NCBI GenBank assembly: GCA_003563465.1
Contig: PWVH01000067.1
Span: 1 to 32,160 of the forward strand
Direction of reading: 5' to 3'
DNA length: 32,160 nt
Source of the DNA: Coriobacteriaceae bacterium
GTDB taxonomy: Bacteria; Actinomycetota; Coriobacteriia; Anaerosomatales; SLCP01
The translations under genes were made by a program, and so were the position numbers. The notes below the pieces were generated by a model. The model did no database searches, was not told the DNA's origin, and was given only the letters and a program-made list of their open reading frames with translations. Below are positions 12,143 to 20,104 of this stretch, piece after piece; the first letter of the stretch is position 1; each line of letters opens with the position of its first letter.

Positions 12143-12480
12143 CGCTCCGCCCTCCTCGCTTTGAAAGTCTCTACTGTGGCCTTGATCATTTCGTCAGCCT
12201 CTTCGGCAGTCGCCCCGGCGGTCTTCGGCCTGGCCACCAAGACGGCGTCAAGCCCCGGCCATGGCCCCTCTGCGCGGCGGACCGCCTCCCTCAGAACGCG
12301 TTTGCTTCGGTTCCGTAGCACCGCGCTGCCAAGCCTCTTTCCCGCAACAAAAGCGACGCGGCCCGCTGGGCCGCGTTCCTCACCTGTCTCGCGCATGAAC
12401 ACCGCGGCGACTGGGTGCGCGAATCGAACGCCCTCATGGAAGACCCTCTCGATCTCCCGGCTCGATCTGATAGTGCGCAA
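12139..12480 (-). CDS. rnpA: Ribonuclease P protein component
   Basis: KRLGSAVLRNRSKRVLRE RNR motif; position after rpmH. Confidence 0.93.
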   Translation of the reverse strand: MRTIRSSREIERVFHEGVRFAHPVAAVFMRETGEERGPAGRVAFVAGKRLGSAVLRNRSKRVLREAVRRAEGPWPGLDAVLVARPKTAGATAEEADEMIKATVETFKARRAER

Positions 12481-12509
12481 TCCTCCACTCTCCGCTCCCG
12501 CGGAACCGC

Positions 12510-12644
12510 TCAGGCGGACAGTACCTCCCGGCCCTTGCGGCGCCGGTTGGCAAGCACGCGTCGGCCCGCCCGTGTCGACATCCGACGGCGGAACCCGTGG
12601 TTCTTGCTGCGCCTGCGCTTACTGGGTTGATAAGTCCTCTTCAA
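12510..12644 (-). CDS. rpmH: 50S ribosomal protein L34 (not in ORF track, 44 aa)
   Basis: Hand translation [44 protein letters not shown]; TTG start after GGAGGAAG. Confidence 0.97.
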
Positions 12645-12691
12645 GGCCACTTCCTCCGGTTCCGGCTACCTGAAAGGAGCAAAGCTCAGCG

Positions 12692-12721
12692 ATTATATCG
12701 GCGTGCCGCTGACGCTGTCAA
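12692..12721 (-). promoter_or_regulatory. Housekeeping sigma promoter of the rpmH operon
   Basis: Minus strand TTGACA-N18-TATAAT, perfect hexamers. Confidence 0.85.
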
Positions 12722-12824
12722 TCCGGGCTTCGGGAGTCGAGCATCTCCCGTTCCAGAGCGTTTCCCGCACTAGCGAGCTCATGACTTCATGCTGTCGGCG
12801 TGCGACAGAAACTCTCCTGAAATC

Positions 12825-13347
12825 TGTGGATACTGTGGAAAAAGCAGGATTCGCGTTTGTTGAACCTGTGGACAACCGGGAGCCGCTCGTTGTTGGACCT
12901 AGACCCCTCTGCTAGAATCGGCCCAGTTCGTGAGGGTGGGGAGTGCTTCGTGTGTACGTTGAAAATGCCTGTTCAGAACAGTTAAGCACGAGCCTCGCTG
13001 CGGGCACTGGGGCTTGTGGGGCTTTCTTATGAAGATCGCTGCGGCTTCGCCGTTAATCTACTCCGGCTATCCACAAGCGGGGAGCTCCTCCCAGCGTCCT
13101 TTTCAACAGCCGGGGAAAGCCAAAAGTACCCTGAACGTCTCCGTGCAGCAAGCTTTAGGGTTGCTGCGGCATTGCTCGGCTAGCTGTTTCCACAGATGTG
13201 GAAAGTCGTGTGTAAAAGTTGGAAAAGTCCGCCTAGGCCTTTCGGCAGAGGCCGTTAGAACAGGTGACCTCGCGGGCGGCTACGGTTCTCTACAGGCATT
13301 CGGGCTGACGCAGACAGGCGTGAGGATGTTGATAAGCGTGTGGATTG
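12825..13347. other. oriC sub-region 1: DnaA-box cluster upstream of the GHKL-wHTH/dnaA genes
   Basis: Degenerate boxes TGTGGATAC 12825, TGTGGAAAA 12834, TGTGGACAA 12867, CTATCCACA 13067, GTTTCCACA 13186, TGTGGAAAG 13197, TGTTGATAA 13327, TGTGGATTG 13339. Confidence 0.8.
12890..12918 (+). promoter_or_regulatory. Candidate promoter for the GHKL-wHTH/dnaA transcript
   Basis: TTGTTG-N17-TAGAAT with extended TG, immediately downstream of three DnaA boxes. Confidence 0.5.
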
Positions 13348-13372
13348 TCTTTACTGAAGAGAAAGCGCGGGG

Positions 13373-14233
13373 ATGGTGAAGGTGTTCTTCGACAAGGCGG
13401 GGGTTTCTCTATCGGACAAGCCGACGCATCCCGGGCCCGCCTCGCCGTCTGCTCCAGAGAAACCTCTGGTTCCGCCGAAATGGACTGCTCTGATCGCCGT
13501 CTATGACGCTCCTGCTGTCGCCCCGCGAACCGAGGAGATTCGGGCCGCCTCGGAAACAGATTTGGTGCAGGGCCTCGCTACTCGAGCATACACCTTGGCC
13601 AAGGAGGCTGGGGGCGACATCCCTTACACGGTTGTTCGGGAGGTGGCGGAGAACCTCATCCACGCCAACCTCTGCGAGCCTGTGGTTTCCGTACTAGATG
13701 GGGGGCTTACTATCCGCTTCGCCGACCAGGGCCCGGGCATTCCCGACAAGGAACGGGCCCTTTTCCCCGGCTTCTCGACCGCGACCTATGAGATGAAGCG
13801 CGTGATCCGCGGGGTTGGCTCTGGTCTGCCGATCGTCACCGAATACCTCAGGTACGCCGGGGGCTTGCTCGAGATTGAAGACAACCTTCGGAAGGGAACA
13901 GTGGTGACGGTGAGGTCGGGTGCCGATCGTCCCGCGCGACCTCCTGAGCCTTCTGCCACGCGTTCTCCCGAGAATGAGACTGCCGGCTCCTCGCGGCCCC
14001 TCTCTTCTTGTCCCGTCCTGACCACTCGCCAGAAACAAGTGCTGTCACTCGTGATGGAGGTCGGCGTCGCCGGCCCGACCCTGGTCTCTCGAGAGCTCGC
14101 CGTTGCCCTGTCCACTGCCTATCGGGATCTCGCTTATCTGGAGCATCAGGGGCTCATCGCCTCCGACGCCTCCGGGAAGCGAGTCCTCACGCAAGAAGGG
14201 TCATCCTGTCTCGATAGTCTCTTCGCCCAATAG
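13373..14233 (+). CDS. GHKL (HATPase_c-like) ATP-binding protein with C-terminal winged-HTH domain, function unknown
   Basis: N box [11 protein letters not shown]1 DQGPGI, FPGFST, G2 GVGSGL, GTVVT; Pro/Ser linker; C-terminal [29 protein letters not shown] wHTH; 17 bp upstream of dnaA. Confidence 0.82.
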
Positions 14234-14250
14234 CCTTCAGAGGGGGATCT

Positions 14251-15648
14251 ATGCAGACTCAAGACGCAGAACGAATCTGGTCTGACGTACTCGAGGTGGT
14301 CAAGTCCGAACTGAACACTCCGACCTTCAAGACCTGGTTCGAGCATACAGCGCCTGTGAGCGTTGTCGCCGGCTCTCTGGTCGTAGCCGTCCAGAACGAA
14401 TTCGCGCGCGAGTGGCTAGAGTCCCGTTACTCCGGGCTACTACAGTCAGCGCTTTCGCAGGTGGCCGGGGAAGATCTTTCTCTCGAATTCACGGTTCCTG
14501 CAGACTCTTCCTCGGCGCAGGGCCTCCGTTCTGCCGACGAGGCCGAGCAAGAGTCACTTATCCAGGCTTCTCCAGCCGAGGCCGTTGCCGGCGAACCGGG
14601 TCCGAGTTCGAACGGCGAGTTCAATCCGAAGTACACCTTCGACTCGTACGTCATCGGGGCGTCTAACCAGTTTGCTCACGCCGCAGCCCTTGCTGTCGCT
14701 GAGTCTCCTGGGCGGGCCTACAATCCTCTGTTCGTGTACGGCGGCGTTGGCCTCGGTAAGACCCACCTGCTTCAGGCCATCGGGCGCTACGTACAGACGA
14801 GCTTCCCTCACTTGAAGGTCAAGTATGTATCGACCGAACAGTTCACCAACGATTTCATCAACTCCATAGGAGACCGCGACAAGAAGCGCATCGAAGGCTT
14901 CCGTCGACAGTACCGGACGAACGACGTTCTGTTAGTAGACGACATCCAGTTCCTAAAAGGAAAAGAGGGGACCCAAGAGGAGTTCTTCCATACTTTCAAT
15001 ACTCTCCAGCAGGCGGGCAAGCAGGTTGTTTTATCTTCGGATAGGCCTCCCAAAGACATCGAGAAGCTTGAGGAACGGCTACGGAGCAGGTTCGAGATGG
15101 GGTTGATAACCGACATACAGCCGCCCGATCTTGAAACCCGCATCGCCATCTTGAAGAGGAACGTCGAGGCCCAGCGCCTCGACGTTCCTGACGATGTCTT
15201 GTCGTTCGTCGCCGATAGAGTGTCCTCGAACATTCGAGAGCTCGAAGGGGCGCTGATTCGCGTCGTGGCGTTCAGTTCGCTGACTCGGCACGCTGTGAAT
15301 CTGGAACTCGCGCGGAACGTCCTAAAAGACATCTTCCCCGAGAGAACGACTCGACCGATCTCTCTTCCGACCATCCAGAGGGAAGTGTGCTCTTACTATT
15401 CGATATCTCGCTCTGAGCTCATCGGCAATAAGCGCTCTCAGTCGATCGTCTATCCCAGACAGGTGGCCATGTATCTCACCAGAGAACTGACCGATCTGTC
15501 CCTGCCGAGAATCGGAGCCGAGTTCGGCGGCCGAGACCACACTACTGTCATGCACGCGACTGCTAAGATTCGCAAGCTGTTGAATGGAGATCGTGAGGTC
15601 TACAACCAGATACAGACCTTGACGAATCAGATACGCCAAAAGAGCTGA
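14251..15648 (+). CDS. dnaA: Chromosomal replication initiator DnaA
   Basis: [52 protein letters not shown]. Confidence 0.99.
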
Positions 15649-15881
15649 CTTCATGAGATATGTGGACTCATCTGTGGAGAGAGTGGGGGAGGTTTGTGGA
15701 ACACCGGCGTCTCTTGTTGGTGGTTTCTTCTGTCTGGGGATTGTGTGGACGGAATGATACTTGCCTTCCACACGTTGTTGACACCTCTTACTGCCACAGC
15801 CAAGTGCCCTGATGGAAGATATCCACAACTCGTAGGACTCTCTACTATTACTACTGACGATATGTAAGAAAGGACGTAATC
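15649..15881. other. oriC: oriC sub-region 2 (dnaA-dnaN) with DnaA boxes and DnaA-trio unwinding element
   Basis: TGTGGA-core boxes at 15661, 15673, 15695, 15744; CCTTCCACA 15764; ATATCCACA 15819-15827, followed by CTACTATTACTACT trios at 15842-15855. Confidence 0.88.
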
Positions 15882-16988
15882 ATGAAGCTGACCGTTGACA
15901 GAAGCGAGATGCTCGAGTCCCTCACGATAGCAAGCAGAGGCCTATCCTCAAGATCCACTCTCCCGATACTCTCGGGCATTCTGATAAGCGCTTCTTCCGA
16001 TGGAAAGGTCACGCTCCAATCAACCGACCTGGAAGTATCTCTACGTAACAGTCTTTCCCAAGCCTCCGTCGAGAGAGAGGGAAAGAGTGTGATTCCTGGG
16101 AAGCTGGTGACGGAGATAGTGAGATCTCTTCCGGAAGCGGCGGTCACGCTTACGGTTGAAGGAGACATTGCCTCTCTGACGTGCATGCAGTCCTCTTTCA
16201 CGGTGAAGACGCTGCCTGCTGACGACTTCCCACAGTTTCCTGAGGTCAAGAGTGCACAGTCGATCTCGCTACCGGCGACTTCGATTTCAAGCATCGTCAA
16301 GCACGTCTCGAAAGCTGTGAGCCGAGACGAAACCCGGCCGGTTTTGACGGGCGTTCTGCTGACGATAGAGGGCAGTGTGGTGAAGATGGTGTCGACGGAT
16401 TCGTATCGGCTGGCTATTAAAGAAGCGGTCGTCGATTCTGATGCGCTCGAGGATACAGAAGTAGTGGTTCCCGGCAAGGTCATGGAAGAGGTTTCGAGAC
16501 TGGCGCCAGAGGATGGAGACGTAGGTATAGGGATAAGCGAGAACCAGGTCGTGTTTTCCTTCGGCGAGACGGAGTTTGTGACCAGGAGAATAGAAGGCTC
16601 TTTTCCAAACTACAAGCAGCTCATACCGAAGGAGGCAGAGACGACCGTTGTCCTGCCCAGAGAGGATGTCCTCGCAGCGGTCAAAAGGGTTTCTCTCCTC
16701 GCCCAACACAACACGCCAATGAGAATAACAGCCAGCGCCGACGATCAGACACTCAGCCTTTCTGCAGCCACGCATGACGTGGGAGACGCATCGGAGGACC
16801 TGATGGCAACGGTAGAAGGGCAAAACGTGGAGATCGCGTTCAATCACGCGTTTCTGCTAGATGGACTTATGGCATCAGAGGGGGAGACCATGAAGCTCAG
16901 CATAGTAAGCCCGCTGAAGCCAGGAGTCATAACGAGCCCGGAAGATGAAGGGTTCTTGTATCTGTTGATGCCCGTACGTCTCGGGTAG
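15882..16988 (+). CDS. dnaN: DNA polymerase III beta sliding clamp
   Basis: STLPILSG, STDLE, DETRPVLTG, STDSYRL, C-terminal YLLMPVR; AAAGGA RBS. Confidence 0.98.
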   Translation: MKLTVDRSEMLESLTIASRGLSSRSTLPILSGILISASSDGKVTLQSTDLEVSLRNSLSQASVEREGKSVIPGKLVTEIVRSLPEAAVTLTVEGDIASLTCMQSSFTVKTLPADDFPQFPEVKSAQSISLPATSISSIVKHVSKAVSRDETRPVLTGVLLTIEGSVVKMVSTDSYRLAIKEAVVDSDALEDTEVVVPGKVMEEVSRLAPEDGDVGIGISENQVVFSFGETEFVTRRIEGSFPNYKQLIPKEAETTVVLPREDVLAAVKRVSLLAQHNTPMRITASADDQTLSLSAATHDVGDASEDLMATVEGQNVEIAFNHAFLLDGLMASEGETMKLSIVSPLKPGVITSPEDEGFLYLLMPVRLG

Positions 16989-17033
16989 GCCGCGCCGAGG
17001 GAATCCTCACCGGGCAGGCTAGAAAGGAAGACC

Positions 17034-19579
<2,546 letters not shown>

Positions 19580-19600: not shown

Positions 19601-20104
19601 GTGACCGGGATTCCCGAAAAGCGAGAGCCACGACGCTTCGAGCCGCCCCCATGGGAGCGCGAGCAGTTCGAAGACCTCGCACGCAGAAAGGCCGATGAGC
19701 AGGAAGAGGCCGGCAAGGAGGAGTCCTCCGCCCCGAGCGAGGAGGAGGCCTCCAGCCTCCCGGCCGAGGAACCGGGCCAAGAGCTCGCCGAGCAGCAGAT
19801 GCGTCCGCCCGGCGCGAAGGAAGAGATTCCTCCGGAGGCGTTTGACATGATGATCGCAGCGCTTAGGGAAGAAGAACCCGGAGCGACAGCGGAAACATGG
19901 AAGGTCGGGCTGGCTGCGGCAGTGCTCATGGGCACCATCGGCCTGGCTCTCGTTATCTGGGGAGCCGTGGCTCTTGCCCGCACTGTGGGGGCAGGCCCTG
20001 CGGGCGTGATGGGGTCGGCAATCATGGTCATCATGGGCGGATTGCTCGTCGCGCTCAGTGTCTGGATGGGCCAGCGCAGCCTTCAACAACGAGGAGTGTT
20101 TTAG
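19601..20104 (+). CDS. Hypothetical membrane protein between gyrB and gyrA (acidic N-terminus, 2 C-terminal TM helices)
   Basis: GGGAG RBS; RRFEPPPWERE motif; two hydrophobic helices; stop directly abuts the gyrA GTG. Confidence 0.8.
   Translation: MTGIPEKREPRRFEPPPWEREQFEDLARRKADEQEEAGKEESSAPSEEEASSLPAEEPGQELAEQQMRPPGAKEEIPPEAFDMMIAALREEEPGATAETWKVGLAAAVLMGTIGLALVIWGAVALARTVGAGPAGVMGSAIMVIMGGLLVALSVWMGQRSLQQRGVF

What the first reader, a model, noticed from the sequence alone, without database searches (positions are those of the whole stretch)
13373..14233. Orphan GHKL-ATPase/winged-HTH gene embedded in the origin, directly upstream of dnaA: candidate new replication-initiation regulator
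Seen: the normally gene-free rpmH-dnaA interval holds a 286-aa gene with a full GHKL nucleotide-binding set ([24 protein letters not shown]). It has no recognisable His-phosphoacceptor, sensor or TM domain, and a Pro/Ser linker joins it to a C-terminal wHTH. It ends 17 bp before dnaA, and two DnaA boxes lie 26-46 bp before its start. Established: rpmH-dnaA adjacency is very widely conserved, and dnaA promoters are autoregulated through DnaA boxes. Inference: this is the first cistron of a DnaA-regulated operon and may be an ATP-gated oriC-binding factor or a regulator of dnaA expression. I know of no characterised protein with this architecture in this role.
Basis: partly seen in the sequence, partly recalled or inferred. 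Interest (0 to 1): 0.8.

Follow-up and report, generated by a model that had tools for sequence, protein, structure and literature searches.

The report
Conserved ATPase/DNA-binder gene leading dnaA
A real, strongly conserved but unstudied gene for an ATP-binding domain tethered to a DNA-binding winged helix sits directly in front of the replication initiator gene dnaA here and in every relative examined across three bacterial phyla, which makes it a good but untested candidate for a new controller of chromosome replication.

Summary
Window 13373-14233 (+) encodes a 286-aa protein; the true start is probably GTG 13376. It has a complete histidine-kinase-type ATP-binding domain (Pfam HATPase_c 4.6e-11), a disordered Pro/Ser linker and a MarR/TrmB-like winged helix. 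It has no DHp/His, sensor or membrane part. It ends 17 bp before dnaA and follows a 722-bp spacer with a conserved DnaA-box cluster.

It is not an orphan. The family has about 400 clusters at 50% identity. It occurs in 227 of 251 genomes of its class, in other deep classes of the phylum and in two further phyla, in single copy. dnaA lay directly downstream in 149 of 151 loci; the other two end at the record's end. The pair stays together even after local rearrangements.

No Pfam or NCBIfam family, informative name or paper describes it. Function is untested: complex prediction and RNA data were unavailable. Natural losses show it is dispensable in some lineages.

Best reading: a DNA-tethered, nucleotide-dependent switch co-expressed with DnaA that tunes dnaA expression or DnaA assembly at a two-part origin.

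This scan met the same family four times before on other genomes. New here are an N-terminal MKxF(F/Y) motif, loss cases and a covarying long-range helix in the leader.

The parts
12510..12650 (-). rpmH (ribosomal protein L34), divergent from the finding
   Evidence: ORF. tblastn matches in the same relative position in related loci.
12692..12721 (-). rpmH promoter, perfect TTGACA-18-TATAAT
   Evidence: 12 of 12 matches. Conserved in the family alignment.
12651..13372 (.). 722-bp spacer with a conserved DnaA-box cluster. Boxes at 12825-12833, 12834-12842, 12867-12875, 13067-13075, convergent pair 13186-13194 / 13198-13206, 13327-13335 and 13339-13347.
   Evidence: 5 boxes with <=1 mismatch. 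(boxes invariant or nearly so in 11 family genomes). (DnaA-box 8-mers dominate 135 upstream spacers). The 2-mismatch boxes are read.
12890..12918 (+). Candidate promoter of the operon: TTGTTG, 17 nt, TG-n-TAGAAT. Inferred.
   Evidence: Conserved block. Not called by the consensus scan, because its -35 matches only 3 of 6. No transcript data.
12964..12972 (+). 5' arm of a long-range complementary pair (AATGCCTGT)
13292..13300 (+). 3' arm of the long-range pair (ACAGGCATT)
   Evidence: 85% of cells paired against 34-44% when slid, 4 of 10 pairs with changes on both sides, 0 of 500 shuffles reach the covariation score.
13373..14233 (+). The gene: GHKL (HATPase_c) plus winged-helix protein, 286 aa (285 aa if it starts at GTG 13376)
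13376..13390 (+). N-terminal motif M-K-V-F-F (family pattern M-[KR]-x-F-[FY])
   Evidence: an in-frame start with this motif in 57 of 152 loci, all among the closest relatives.
13481..13918 (+). ATP-binding domain, residues 37-182 (b-b-a-a-b-b-lid-a-b-b). N box E90/N94, G1 D118-x-G-x-G122, PGF(S/T)TA 132-137, G2 G147-x-G-x-G151, G175-T.
   Evidence: Pfam. Invariant columns. Model with pLDDT above 90 over most of the domain. Foldseek matches to HK853, CpxA, PDK/BCK and SpoIIAB.
13919..14008 (+). Pro/Ser-rich linker, residues 183-212, predicted disordered, very variable in length among relatives
   Evidence: pLDDT about 51. Gap-rich columns about 210-440 of A1, with long P/Q/Y-rich inserts in some lineages.
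14009..14230 (+). Winged helix-turn-helix, residues 213-286; conserved recognition helix L-S-T-A-Y-R-D-L (244-251)
   Evidence: MarR, Csa3, PhiH1 repressor, Z 12-13. (SSO2273, PhiH1 repressor, AdcR). (27 of 56 members HTH_IclR, 20 of 56 TrmB at E<=0.001)..
14251..15648 (+). dnaA, 17 bp after the stop, with GAGGGGGA at 14240-14247
15649..15881 (.). dnaA-dnaN spacer with DnaA-box-like sites. The box ATATCCACA (15819-15827) is followed after 14 bp by CTACTATTACTACTG (15842-15856), which on the other strand reads 3'-GAT GAT AAT GAT GAC-5'. This is a likely unwinding module.
   Evidence: Criteria from PMC8287927 (passages read). The orientation rule was not checked.
15882..17582 (+). dnaN (15882-16988) and dciA (17034-17582)
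   Evidence: DNA_pol3_beta x3; DciA 3.8e-21.

Best explanation
The gene encodes a two-part protein made together with DnaA from one transcript. The winged helix anchors it to a conserved DNA site in the origin/dnaA-promoter region. The histidine-kinase-type domain, on a flexible tether, binds ATP and acts as a nucleotide-dependent switch. In one nucleotide state it changes how DnaA is expressed or how DnaA assembles on its boxes. This couples initiation to energy or replication status.

Shown:
- The gene is real, single-copy and under strong constraint.
- All nucleotide-binding motifs are invariant.
- There is no phospho-acceptor or sensor domain.
- It is glued to dnaA across three phyla.
- It lies between an upstream DnaA-box cluster and dnaA, with a likely unwinding module after dnaA.

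Inferred:
- co-transcription with dnaA;
- ATP binding;
- DNA binding and its target site;
- any effect on dnaA or DnaA.

I put about 0.65 on 'its function concerns dnaA or initiation at all', and 0.45 on the tethered-switch mechanism as stated.
For: Linkage to dnaA:
- dnaA is directly downstream on the same strand in 11/11, 20/20, 19/20, 19/20 and 80/80 loci. The two misses end at the record's end.
- In three rearranged loci (L049, L145, L150) dnaN and rpmH have moved, but the gene-dnaA pair is kept.
- The gap from the gene's stop to the dnaA match is -4 to 91 bp in L001-L032, leaving out the frameshifted L031, and 17 bp here.
- Each genome shows one strong match. No match was found in 72,556 plasmids or 50,697 phages.

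Spread:
- 227/251 genomes of the class at E<=1e-10.
- 107/301 of a phylum sample at E<=1e-8, with none in the large families f38 (0/21), f42 (0/21) and f40 (0/10).
- 79/94 and 22/201 in two other phyla.

Constraint:
- N94, H97, A98, D118, G120, G122, G133, A137, G147, G149, G151 and G175 are invariant in 56 sequences down to 32% identity.
- The recognition helix (L/V)S(T/S)A(Y/H)R(D/E)L is conserved across classes, which argues for a conserved DNA target.

Fold:
- Model pLDDT is 87.1, with two domains and a disordered linker.

Origin context:
- The DnaA-box cluster is conserved upstream.
- A box-spacer-trio module lies downstream of dnaA.

Other regulators:
- The known Firmicute DnaA regulators YabA and SirA were not found in this genome, which is 90.65% complete.
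- The only second Bac_DnaA match is an IS21 IstB-type ATPase.
Against: - No experiment, transcript, binding or interaction datum exists for any member.
- The gene is dispensable in some lineages. A 100%-complete relative (G028) has an IS30-like transposase where the gene should be and only weak kinase matches elsewhere. Family f28 has a match in only 2 of 10 genomes; in the one locus examined there (G049) the spacer holds no such gene. DnaA boxes are kept in both loci examined.
- It was not found in most of the phylum sample (194 of 301), and by recall it is absent from model bacteria.
- k-mer analysis of 135 upstream spacers gave no motif other than DnaA boxes and their variants, so no separate site for the winged helix is evident.
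- The domain lacks the transducer domain that true GHL ATPases use for hydrolysis, so 'ATPase' may be too strong.
- Tight linkage to dnaA shows shared regulation or history, not mechanism.
Confidence: 0.45

Rival explanations
1. A plain one-component transcription factor. The winged helix represses or activates the operon promoter, and perhaps other genes, and the ATP-binding domain is only a ligand sensor. It has no contact with DnaA and no role in origin firing beyond setting the dnaA mRNA level.
For: The MarR/TrmB/IclR-like wHTH is typical of ligand-controlled repressors. The gene heads the operon it would regulate. A conserved candidate promoter and conserved leader elements lie upstream. 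A palindrome-like convergent box pair at 13186-13206 would suit a dimeric wHTH protein.
Against: No conserved site distinct from DnaA boxes was found across lineages. Histidine-kinase-type domains are, by recall, not known as small-molecule sensor modules of repressors. The extreme fidelity of the link to dnaA over three phyla, also through rearrangements, is more than autoregulators usually show.
Confidence: 0.25
2. A protein kinase. Like SpoIIAB/RsbW (Ser kinases) or PDK/BCK, the stand-alone kinase-type domain phosphorylates a partner, and the winged helix localises it. The partner could be DnaA, DnaN, DciA or its own Ser/Thr-rich linker.
For: All boxes of kinase-type GHKL domains are present (N, G1, F-like, G2). 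The best sequence matches in the PDB are kinases: KinB 9.6e-9, CheA 1.1e-6, BCK 1.8e-6. SpoIIAB matches at TM 0.64 (target-normalised), rmsd 3.5 A over 133 columns, with the same roughly 146-residue size and strand order. JGI names some members 'anti-sigma regulatory factor (Ser/Thr protein kinase)'.
Against: No acceptor domain is encoded beside it. The 5 STAS genes of this genome are all on other contigs, and none of 28 window ORFs has STAS or sigma-factor domains. NCBIfam spIIAB scores 16.9 bits against a cut-off of 135. No invariant Ser/Thr/His lies outside the nucleotide-binding motifs. By recall, phosphorylation of DnaA is not an established control in bacteria.
Confidence: 0.12
3. A passenger. 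The protein has a job unrelated to replication, such as a global regulator or nucleoid protein. It keeps its place only because the origin-proximal, growth-coupled dnaA operon is a favourable and rarely disrupted position.
For: Several genes with other functions are also conserved around origins (rpmH, rnpA, yidC, jag, rsmG, gyrB). The gene has been lost without loss of the origin layout.
Against: Those neighbours separate from dnaA in the rearranged loci, while this gene does not (L049, L145, L150). There are no paralogues or copies elsewhere in any genome searched, and none on plasmids or phages.
Confidence: 0.15

Closest known systems
Catalytic (CA, HATPase_c, PF02518) domain of two-component histidine kinases (KinB 3D36, HK853, CpxA, WalK/YycG)
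   Same: Bergerat fold with N, G1, F-like and G2 boxes. Pfam E 4.6e-11. PDB profile hits: KinB 9.6e-9, YycG 4.1e-6, HK853 2.2e-5. Foldseek E about 2e-6.
   Different: It has no DHp/HisKA helix pair with an acceptor His, no sensor, no membrane segment and no cognate response regulator beside it. It is fused to a DNA-binding domain instead.
SpoIIAB / RsbW anti-sigma factor Ser kinases (stand-alone GHKL)
   Same: A stand-alone domain of about 146 residues with the same order of strands and helices. TM 0.64 (target-normalised), rmsd 3.5 A over 133 columns to 1TID. The E-x-x-x-N N box follows from linear mapping of the Pfam match and is an inference.
   Different: The sequence match is weak (PDB 9e-4; NCBIfam 16.9 bits against a cut-off of 135). 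No STAS partner or sigma factor lies in the locus. It carries a wHTH.
DIP2311 of Corynebacterium diphtheriae (PDB 3LMM; by recall the AlbA_2 / HATPase_c_4 / HTH 'COG2865' type, function unknown)
   Same: The best whole-chain structural match. It covers both domains in the same order: Z 14.8, 208 residues aligned, model 34-280 on chain 235-496. Foldseek E 4.9e-7.
   Different: rmsd is 10.5 A, because domain orientation differs, and identity is 15-18%. DIP2311 has a further N-terminal half that is absent here. It is itself uncharacterised and, as far as I know, not linked to dnaA.
MarR / TrmB / IclR / Csa3-type winged helix-turn-helix regulators
   Same: C-terminal residues 212-286 match at Z 12-13, rmsd 1.1-2.0 A. 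27/56 family members hit HTH_IclR and 20/56 hit TrmB at E<=0.001.
   Different: It is a single wHTH without the MarR dimerisation helices. In this protein the Pfam scores are below the cut-offs.
Known regulators of DnaA and oriC: YabA, SirA, Soj, DnaD (Bacillus); Hda, DiaA, SeqA (E. coli); HobA, HP1021 (Helicobacter); CtrA, MtrA (response regulators that bind oriC). All recalled, not searched one by one.
   Same: The proposed role: a protein that acts on DnaA or the origin. Like CtrA, MtrA and HP1021 it would bring a signalling-type module to origin DNA. Like Hda it carries a short motif at its extreme N terminus.
   Different: It has no sequence or fold relation to any of them. Pfam lists none for this protein. 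YabA and SirA are not found in this genome. None of them is a GHKL protein, and by recall none is encoded as the leader of the dnaA operon.

Membership tests
GHKL / HATPase_c superfamily (Bergerat ATP-binding fold) | N box with Mg-binding Asn | tested here: met
   E90-V-A-E-N94 is present and N94 is invariant in 56 sequences. It lies at the N-box position by linear mapping of Pfam positions 7-106 onto residues 85-181; that mapping is an inference.
GHKL / HATPase_c superfamily (Bergerat ATP-binding fold) | G1 (DxGxG) and G2 (GxxGxG) glycine boxes | tested here: met
   D118, G120, G122, G147, G149 and G151 are all invariant.
GHKL / HATPase_c superfamily (Bergerat ATP-binding fold) | alpha/beta sandwich fold | tested here: met
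   The model has pLDDT above 90 over the domain. Foldseek probability is 1.00 to HK853, CpxA, PDK, BCK, SpoIIAB and CheA.
GHKL / HATPase_c superfamily (Bergerat ATP-binding fold) | Binds ATP | not testable with these tools
   Needs purified protein.
Two-component sensor histidine kinase | DHp / HisKA dimerisation domain with phospho-acceptor His | tested here: not met
   No HisKA-type family at E<=1. The model shows two strands, not a helical hairpin, before the ATP-binding domain. The only invariant His (H97) lies in the N box.
Two-component sensor histidine kinase | Sensor or membrane domain and a cognate response regulator | tested here: not met
   The N-terminal 36 residues are Pro-rich, variable and of low confidence. 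No response-regulator gene is among 28 window ORFs.
SpoIIAB/RsbW anti-sigma Ser kinases | Family-level sequence match | tested here: not met
   NCBIfam TIGR01925 scores 16.9 bits against a cut-off of 135. HATPase_c_2 is not among the Pfam hits of any of 56 members at E<=0.001.
SpoIIAB/RsbW anti-sigma Ser kinases | Encoded with a STAS antagonist and/or sigma factor | tested here: not met
   None in the window. The 5 STAS genes are on contigs C82, C12 and C131.
MarR/TrmB/IclR-type wHTH DNA-binding domains | Winged-helix fold with recognition helix | tested here: met
   Z 12-13, rmsd 1.1-2.0 A over 70-75 residues. Relatives pass Pfam thresholds.
MarR/TrmB/IclR-type wHTH DNA-binding domains | Binds specific DNA | not testable with these tools
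   No separate conserved motif was found by k-mer counts. Needs EMSA or ChIP.
DIP2311 / 3LMM-type proteins | N-terminal half preceding the ATPase-like and HTH domains | tested here: not met
   The match covers only chain residues 235-496. The query has just 36 variable residues before the ATP-binding domain.
Known DnaA-regulator families (YabA, SirA, Hda) | Sequence membership | tested here: not met
   None is listed by Pfam for this protein at E<=1. YabA and SirA are absent from the genome search. The second Bac_DnaA match is an IS21 IstB-type ATPase.
dnaA-operon leader gene (operational definition) | Immediately upstream of dnaA, same strand, short gap, conserved across relatives | tested here: met
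   149 of 151 loci. The gap is 17 bp here.
dnaA-operon leader gene (operational definition) | Co-transcribed with dnaA | not testable with these tools
   No RNA run was listed. No sigma-70-like + strand promoter was called in 12400-16100, but that scan is crude.

The most novel reading that the evidence does not exclude
The family is a previously unrecognised class of replication-initiation regulator, shared by Coriobacteriia (including human-gut Eggerthellaceae and Coriobacteriaceae), other deep Actinomycetota, the CSP1-3/Sysuimicrobium-type phylum and some Limnochordia-like Bacillota. It would be an origin-tethered, ATP-state-dependent partner of DnaA. It is made in fixed proportion to DnaA from the same mRNA. 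In the window's order it uses its N-terminal MKxF(F/Y) peptide on a disordered tether to dock onto a replication protein (DnaA domain I or the DnaN clamp). That would give a RIDA/YabA-like feedback from ongoing replication to initiation in lineages that lack Hda, YabA and SirA.
Probability: 0.25. Interest if true: 0.85.

Novelty: new variant of a known kind. Interest (0 to 1): 0.65.

Why it matters
Control of DnaA is understood in a handful of model bacteria, and the regulators found there (Hda, SeqA, YabA, SirA, Soj, CtrA) are each confined to a few lineages. How the deep Gram-positive lineages time initiation is unknown.

Here is a single-copy gene that has stayed welded to dnaA through the divergence of three phyla. 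Its nucleotide-binding residues are invariant and its DNA-recognition helix is conserved. That is about as strong a comparative-genomic pointer to a functional partnership as one can get.

The question is directly testable, because type strains carry it. Slackia equolifaciens and S. isoflavoniconvertens are shown here. Members also come from records labelled Gordonibacter, Eggerthellaceae and Coriobacteriaceae.

If confirmed, it would add a kinase-type ATP-binding module to the repertoire of origin regulators. It would also show that the 'gene-free' rpmH-dnaA interval is not universal, which matters for origin prediction tools.

Tried and rejected
- **Complex of the protein (A1) with DnaA (A2).** The tool then said it was unavailable. 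Nothing was folded, so binding to DnaA, DnaN or DciA is untested.
- **Second structure job.** The domain-only fold search was therefore not done.
- **Expression.** No RNA holder was listed for 12600-15700.
- **ESM Atlas.** The exact sequence is not held. The stored homologue P0116 gave only generic 'ATP-binding protein / histidine kinase family' clusters.
- **Literature.** Searches returned nothing on this gene family. Only listings were seen, except PMC8287927, where passages were read. The library lacks most subscription journals, and supplements were closed.
- **Fusions as a Rosetta stone.**
  - The open frames of 776-795 aa reported for G032, G033 and G190 are not fusions. For G033 (L018), translation shows the gene and dnaA in one frame separated by one stop codon. 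For G032 (L023), my ORF scan ends the gene at its own stop. G190 was not checked.
  - The N-terminal extensions of 13 longer representatives carry no Pfam domain.
- **Separate binding motif for the winged helix.** 8-mer counts over 135 upstream spacers gave only DnaA boxes and the variant TGTTGAAAA/TTTTCAACA.
- **Rfam.** No credible family in 12400-16000; the one chance-level hit had E 0.93.
- **Mobile elements.** No match in plasmids or phages.
- **Hda-like paralogue.** The second Bac_DnaA hit is an IstB-type IS21 ATPase.
- **Strand of the long-range helix.** This is undecided: 2 U.G cells for the + sense against 3 A.C cells.
- **Family tree.** No tree was built, because organism labels of the MAG records are unreliable and the group codes are anonymous.
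Full report
**1. What is there.**

The window is a textbook origin neighbourhood. The genes in order are:
- on the - strand: parB, parA, rsmG, jag, yidC, yidD, rnpA, rpmH;
- a 722-bp spacer;
- on the + strand: the finding, dnaA, dnaN, dciA, gyrB, an unassigned 167-aa ORF, gyrA.

The ORF 13373-14233 (+) gives 286 aa. Pfam finds HATPase_c at residues 85-181 (E 4.6e-11, 43.6 bits, cut-off 26.4). It finds only sub-threshold winged-helix families at residues 217-283. It finds no HisKA, sensor or membrane family. NCBIfam has no model for it; the best hits are 17-23 bits against cut-offs of 60-1200.

The stop is 17 bp from the dnaA ATG, with GAGGGGGA between them.

**2. The protein.**

An AlphaFold2 model was built on a 56-sequence alignment. 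Its mean pLDDT is 87.1, with 212 residues at 90 or above. It shows:
- a low-confidence tail (residues 1-36);
- an alpha/beta ATP-binding domain (37-182);
- a disordered linker (about 183-212, pLDDT about 51);
- a three-helix winged helix (213-286).

Foldseek against the PDB gives these matches for the ATP-binding domain:
- histidine-kinase CA domains: HK853 at 1.9e-6, CpxA;
- the mitochondrial kinases PDK and BCK;
- CheA;
- SpoIIAB, at TM 0.64 on the target and rmsd 3.5 A over 133 columns.

The profile search of PDB sequences agrees: KinB 9.6e-9, CheA 1.1e-6, BCK 1.8e-6, MutL 4.3e-5, SpoIIAB 9e-4.

The C-terminal domain matches MarR, Csa3, ScoC/Hpr, CggR and the PhiH1 repressor at Z 12-13, rmsd 1.1-2.0 A.

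The only solved chain that matches both domains in order is DIP2311 (3LMM), a structural-genomics protein of unknown function. It gives Z 14.8 over 208 residues, with rmsd 10.5 A.

In the alignment, N94, H97, A98, D118, G120, G122, G133, A137, G147, G149, G151 and G175 are invariant. E90, E93, R146 and others are above 90%. This is the full N, G1, F-like and G2 box set of kinase-type GHKL domains.

There is no acceptor His domain and no transducer domain. I therefore read the domain as a nucleotide-binding switch or kinase rather than a strong ATPase; this is an inference.

The recognition helix (L/V)S(T/S)A(Y/H)R(D/E)L is conserved across classes, while the linker varies from about 20 to more than 200 residues.

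**3. It is a family, and it is welded to dnaA.**

*Size and naming.*
- The word-indexed protein search found 2653 proteins at E<=0.001. All 120 best carry PF02518.
- Their names are only generic: hypothetical, ATP-binding protein, histidine kinase, anti-sigma regulatory factor, HTH regulator.
- The exhaustive profile search found 402 clusters (50% identity) at E<=1e-30 and 788 at E<=1e-10.

*Spread in whole genomes.*
- 34 of 41 nearest genomes have one strong match (E<=1e-40, my count from the table). All further matches there are ordinary kinases at E>=2.8e-7.
- 227 of 251 genomes of the class match at E<=1e-10.
- 107 of 301 of a phylum-wide sample match at E<=1e-8.
  - Four of these (G262, G270, G381, G507) are weak partial matches that look like ordinary kinases.
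  - Whole large families have none: f38 0/21, f42 0/21, f40 0/10.
- The family is also in 79 of 94 genomes of the phylum that holds the MAGs labelled CSP1-3, ANGP1 and Ca. Sysuimicrobium.
- It is in 22 of 201 genomes of the phylum of a Limnochordia-labelled MAG.
- Counts include the unpublished genomes G270, G751 and G759. No other claim rests on them.
- Record titles place members in Coriobacteriia, Slackia equolifaciens and S. isoflavoniconvertens type strains, Gordonibacter, Eggerthellaceae, Coriobacteriaceae and Ca. Hakubella. A few titles (Bacteroidaceae, Desulfuromonadales, Aeromicrobium) are probably mislabelled bins.

*Gene order.* dnaA is the next gene on the same strand in:

| Set of loci | dnaA directly downstream |
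|---|---|
| Window's family | 11 of 11 |
| Window's order | 20 of 20 |
| Class | 19 of 20 |
| Other classes | 19 of 20 |
| Loci fetched by a peptide pattern | 80 of 80 |

- The two exceptions (L036, L072) end at the end of a complete-chromosome record just after the gene.
- At least six of the 80 loci are the same contigs or sequences as earlier loci (L080=L018, L091=L013, L095=L024, L115=L041, L073=L005, L074=L011). Relatives are also not independent, so the numbers describe breadth and are not a statistic.
- In L049, L145 and L150, dnaN is inverted upstream and rpmH lies downstream of dnaA, yet the gene-dnaA pair is intact.
- The distance from the gene's stop to the dnaA match is -4 to 91 bp in the window's order and mostly under 60 bp in other classes. 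It grows to 90-220 bp or more in Eggerthellaceae and Coriobacteriaceae.
- Identity to the window's proteins is 54-66% for this gene against 77-84% for DnaA within the family. In other classes it is 34-51% against 46-65%.
- There are no matches in plasmid or phage collections.

**4. Losses.**

Of five genomes without a match that I followed up:
- two (G125, G016) also lack dnaA in the assembly;
- one (G186) has dnaA cut at a contig edge;
- G028 (100% complete) has an IS30-like transposase gene ending about 700 bp before dnaA and no such gene;
- G049 has a gene-free spacer of about 970 bp between dnaA and rnpA. It belongs to family f28, where only 2 of 10 genomes have a match.

Both G028 and G049 keep DnaA boxes before and after dnaA. 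So the gene is not indispensable.

**5. The surroundings: a two-part origin.**

- DnaA boxes with <=1 mismatch number 14 in the window against 2.04 expected. Five lie in 12825-13335 and one in the dnaA-dnaN spacer.
- In an alignment of 11 family genomes the boxes and their spacing are nearly invariant.
- Over 135 loci, the commonest 8-mers of the upstream spacer are all DnaA-box words. TGTGGAAA occurs in 111 and TATCCACA in 93.
- In the dnaA-dnaN spacer, TAGTAATA/TACTACTA-type words occur in 40-43 of 126 loci.
- In the window, ATATCCACA (15819-15827) is followed after 14 bp by CTACTATTACTACTG. On the other strand this reads 3'-GAT GAT AAT GAT GAC-5'.
- That fits the box, spacer (<=16 bp), three-or-more-trio rule of the basal unwinding system (PMC8287927, passages read). 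I did not check the orientation rule.
- The operon thus sits between an upstream box cluster and a downstream unwinding module, as dnaA alone does in Bacillus (recalled).
- The rpmH promoter is a perfect TTGACA-18-TATAAT.
- A conserved TTGTTG-17-TGnTAGAAT at 12890-12918 is my candidate for the operon promoter. It is inferred and was not called by the scan. If right, most DnaA boxes lie in the transcribed leader, the arrangement expected for autoregulation by DnaA.

**6. New details.**

*(a) N-terminal motif.*
- In 57 of 152 loci, an in-frame start codon opens with M-[KR]-x-F-[FY].
- These are L001-L030, L032 and 26 of L073-L101, the loci most like the window. None of the 91 more distant loci has it.
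- Here the motif is GTG 13376, M-K-V-F-F. This fixes the start and defines a short N-terminal peptide on a variable Pro-rich tether. Such an arrangement is typical of docking motifs. Its partner is unknown.
- By recall, it lacks the Gln of the canonical clamp-binding motif.

*(b) Long-range helix.*
- Two conserved leader elements about 330 nt apart are complementary: 12964-12972 and 13292-13300.
- They change together: AATGCCTG/CAGGCATT here, AACACCTG/CAGGTGTT in six relatives, AACACCAG/CTGGTGTT in L005, and AACAGCCG/CGGCTGTT in L019.
- RNAalifold predicts this helix on its own.
- On 14 sequences, 85% of cells pair against 34-44% when the partner is slid. Four of 10 pairs show changes on both sides. 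0 of 500 shuffles reach the covariation score.
- The set is small and the sequences are related. The strand is undecided, with 2 U.G against 3 A.C cells. No Rfam family matches.

**7. Mechanism.**

What is shown is position, conservation and domain chemistry.

My best reading is a DNA-tethered nucleotide switch, made from the same mRNA as DnaA, that tunes dnaA expression or DnaA assembly (0.45).

The rivals are:
- a plain autoregulatory transcription factor (0.25);
- a protein kinase in the manner of SpoIIAB or PDK (0.12);
- a passenger gene (0.15).

YabA and SirA are not found in this 90.65%-complete genome. The only DnaA-like paralogue is an IS21 IstB-type ATPase. So none of the known regulator families I searched for was found in this assembly, which is weak support for the reading. 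The five STAS genes lie on other contigs, which argues against a SpoIIAB-type partner switch at this locus.

The decisive computations could not be run: complexes with DnaA or DnaN and read mapping for co-transcription.

**8. Known or new.**

No curated family, informative name or paper was found. Searches gave listings only. Subscription journals and supplements were not covered.

Earlier agents of this scan reached the same family on four other genomes and came to the same view. I re-derived presence and gene order independently here.

The domains are ordinary. The fixed partnership with dnaA inside the origin is not described. I file it as a new variant of a known kind: an uncharacterised GHKL-wHTH family and a candidate initiation regulator. 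Interest is 0.65.

Noticed in passing
window 15819-15856 (dnaA-dnaN spacer): The DnaA box ATATCCACA is followed after 14 bp by CTACTATTACTACTG, which on the other strand reads 3'-GAT GAT AAT GAT GAC-5'. This is a box/spacer/DnaA-trio module like the basal unwinding system. Trio-type 8-mers occur in 40-43 of 126 related dnaA-dnaN spacers. Together with the upstream box cluster, this indicates a two-part origin around the operon.
   Followed up: partly
window 12964-12972 with 13292-13300: Conserved elements about 330 nt apart in the leader/spacer are complementary and covary, with four different Watson-Crick versions among relatives. 85% of cells pair against 34-44% when slid, and 0 of 500 shuffles reach the covariation score. 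This is possibly a structured 5' leader of the operon. The strand is undecided and there is no Rfam match.
   Followed up: partly
window 13376-13390; L001-L032 and L073-L101: An N-terminal peptide M-[KR]-x-F-[FY] at the in-frame start occurs in 57 of 152 loci, all among the window's closest relatives and none among 91 more distant loci. It is followed by a variable Pro-rich tail. It moves the likely start to GTG 13376. A docking-motif role is a guess.
   Followed up: partly
L153 (G028:C39:1-5200) and L154 (G049:C17:18500-25500): Natural losses of the gene. In G028 an IS30-like transposase ORF (483 aa) ends about 700 bp before dnaA. In G049 a gene-free spacer of about 970 bp lies between dnaA and rnpA. 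DnaA boxes are retained in both.
   Followed up: yes
L049, L145, L150 (Eggerthellaceae-type loci): A local rearrangement: dnaN is inverted upstream of the gene and rpmH-rnpA-yidC lie downstream of dnaA, while the gene-dnaA pair stays intact.
   Followed up: partly
L018 (G033), also G032, G190, G177: the genome search reports open frames of 703-795 aa for the match. In L018 the gene and dnaA are in the same frame, separated by a single stop codon. This is not a fusion. Whether the in-frame arrangement has any meaning (readthrough) was not examined.
   Followed up: partly
window 12959-12978 and related loci: The element CCTTGAAAAC-N5-7-YTCAG (here CGTTGAAAATGCCTGTTCAG) is conserved about 400-530 nt upstream of the gene in the window's order. 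Its core holds the 5' arm of the long-range pair.
   Followed up: partly
upstream spacers of many loci (e.g. L059, L106, L109, L117, L125): A recurrent module of two direct DnaA boxes followed by an inverted variant box, for example TTATCCACA-N3-TTTTCCAC(A/G)-N2-3-TGTTGAAAAC. The variant TGTTGA(A/T)AA / TT(A/T)TCAACA is frequent: 54-62 of 135 spacers. It may be a low-affinity DnaA box or the site of another protein.
   Followed up: no
window 19601-20104 (+): A 167-aa ORF between gyrB and gyrA has no Pfam family at E<=1e-5.
   Followed up: no
window 15882-17582: dnaN is followed directly by dciA (DciA 3.8e-21). No recF lies between dnaN and gyrB, unlike the usual actinobacterial order (recalled).
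   Followed up: no
G000:C121:7408-7722 (L155): The second Bac_DnaA match of the genome is an IstB-type ATPase next to an IstA-like transposase fragment (an IS21-family element), not an Hda-like protein.
   Followed up: yes
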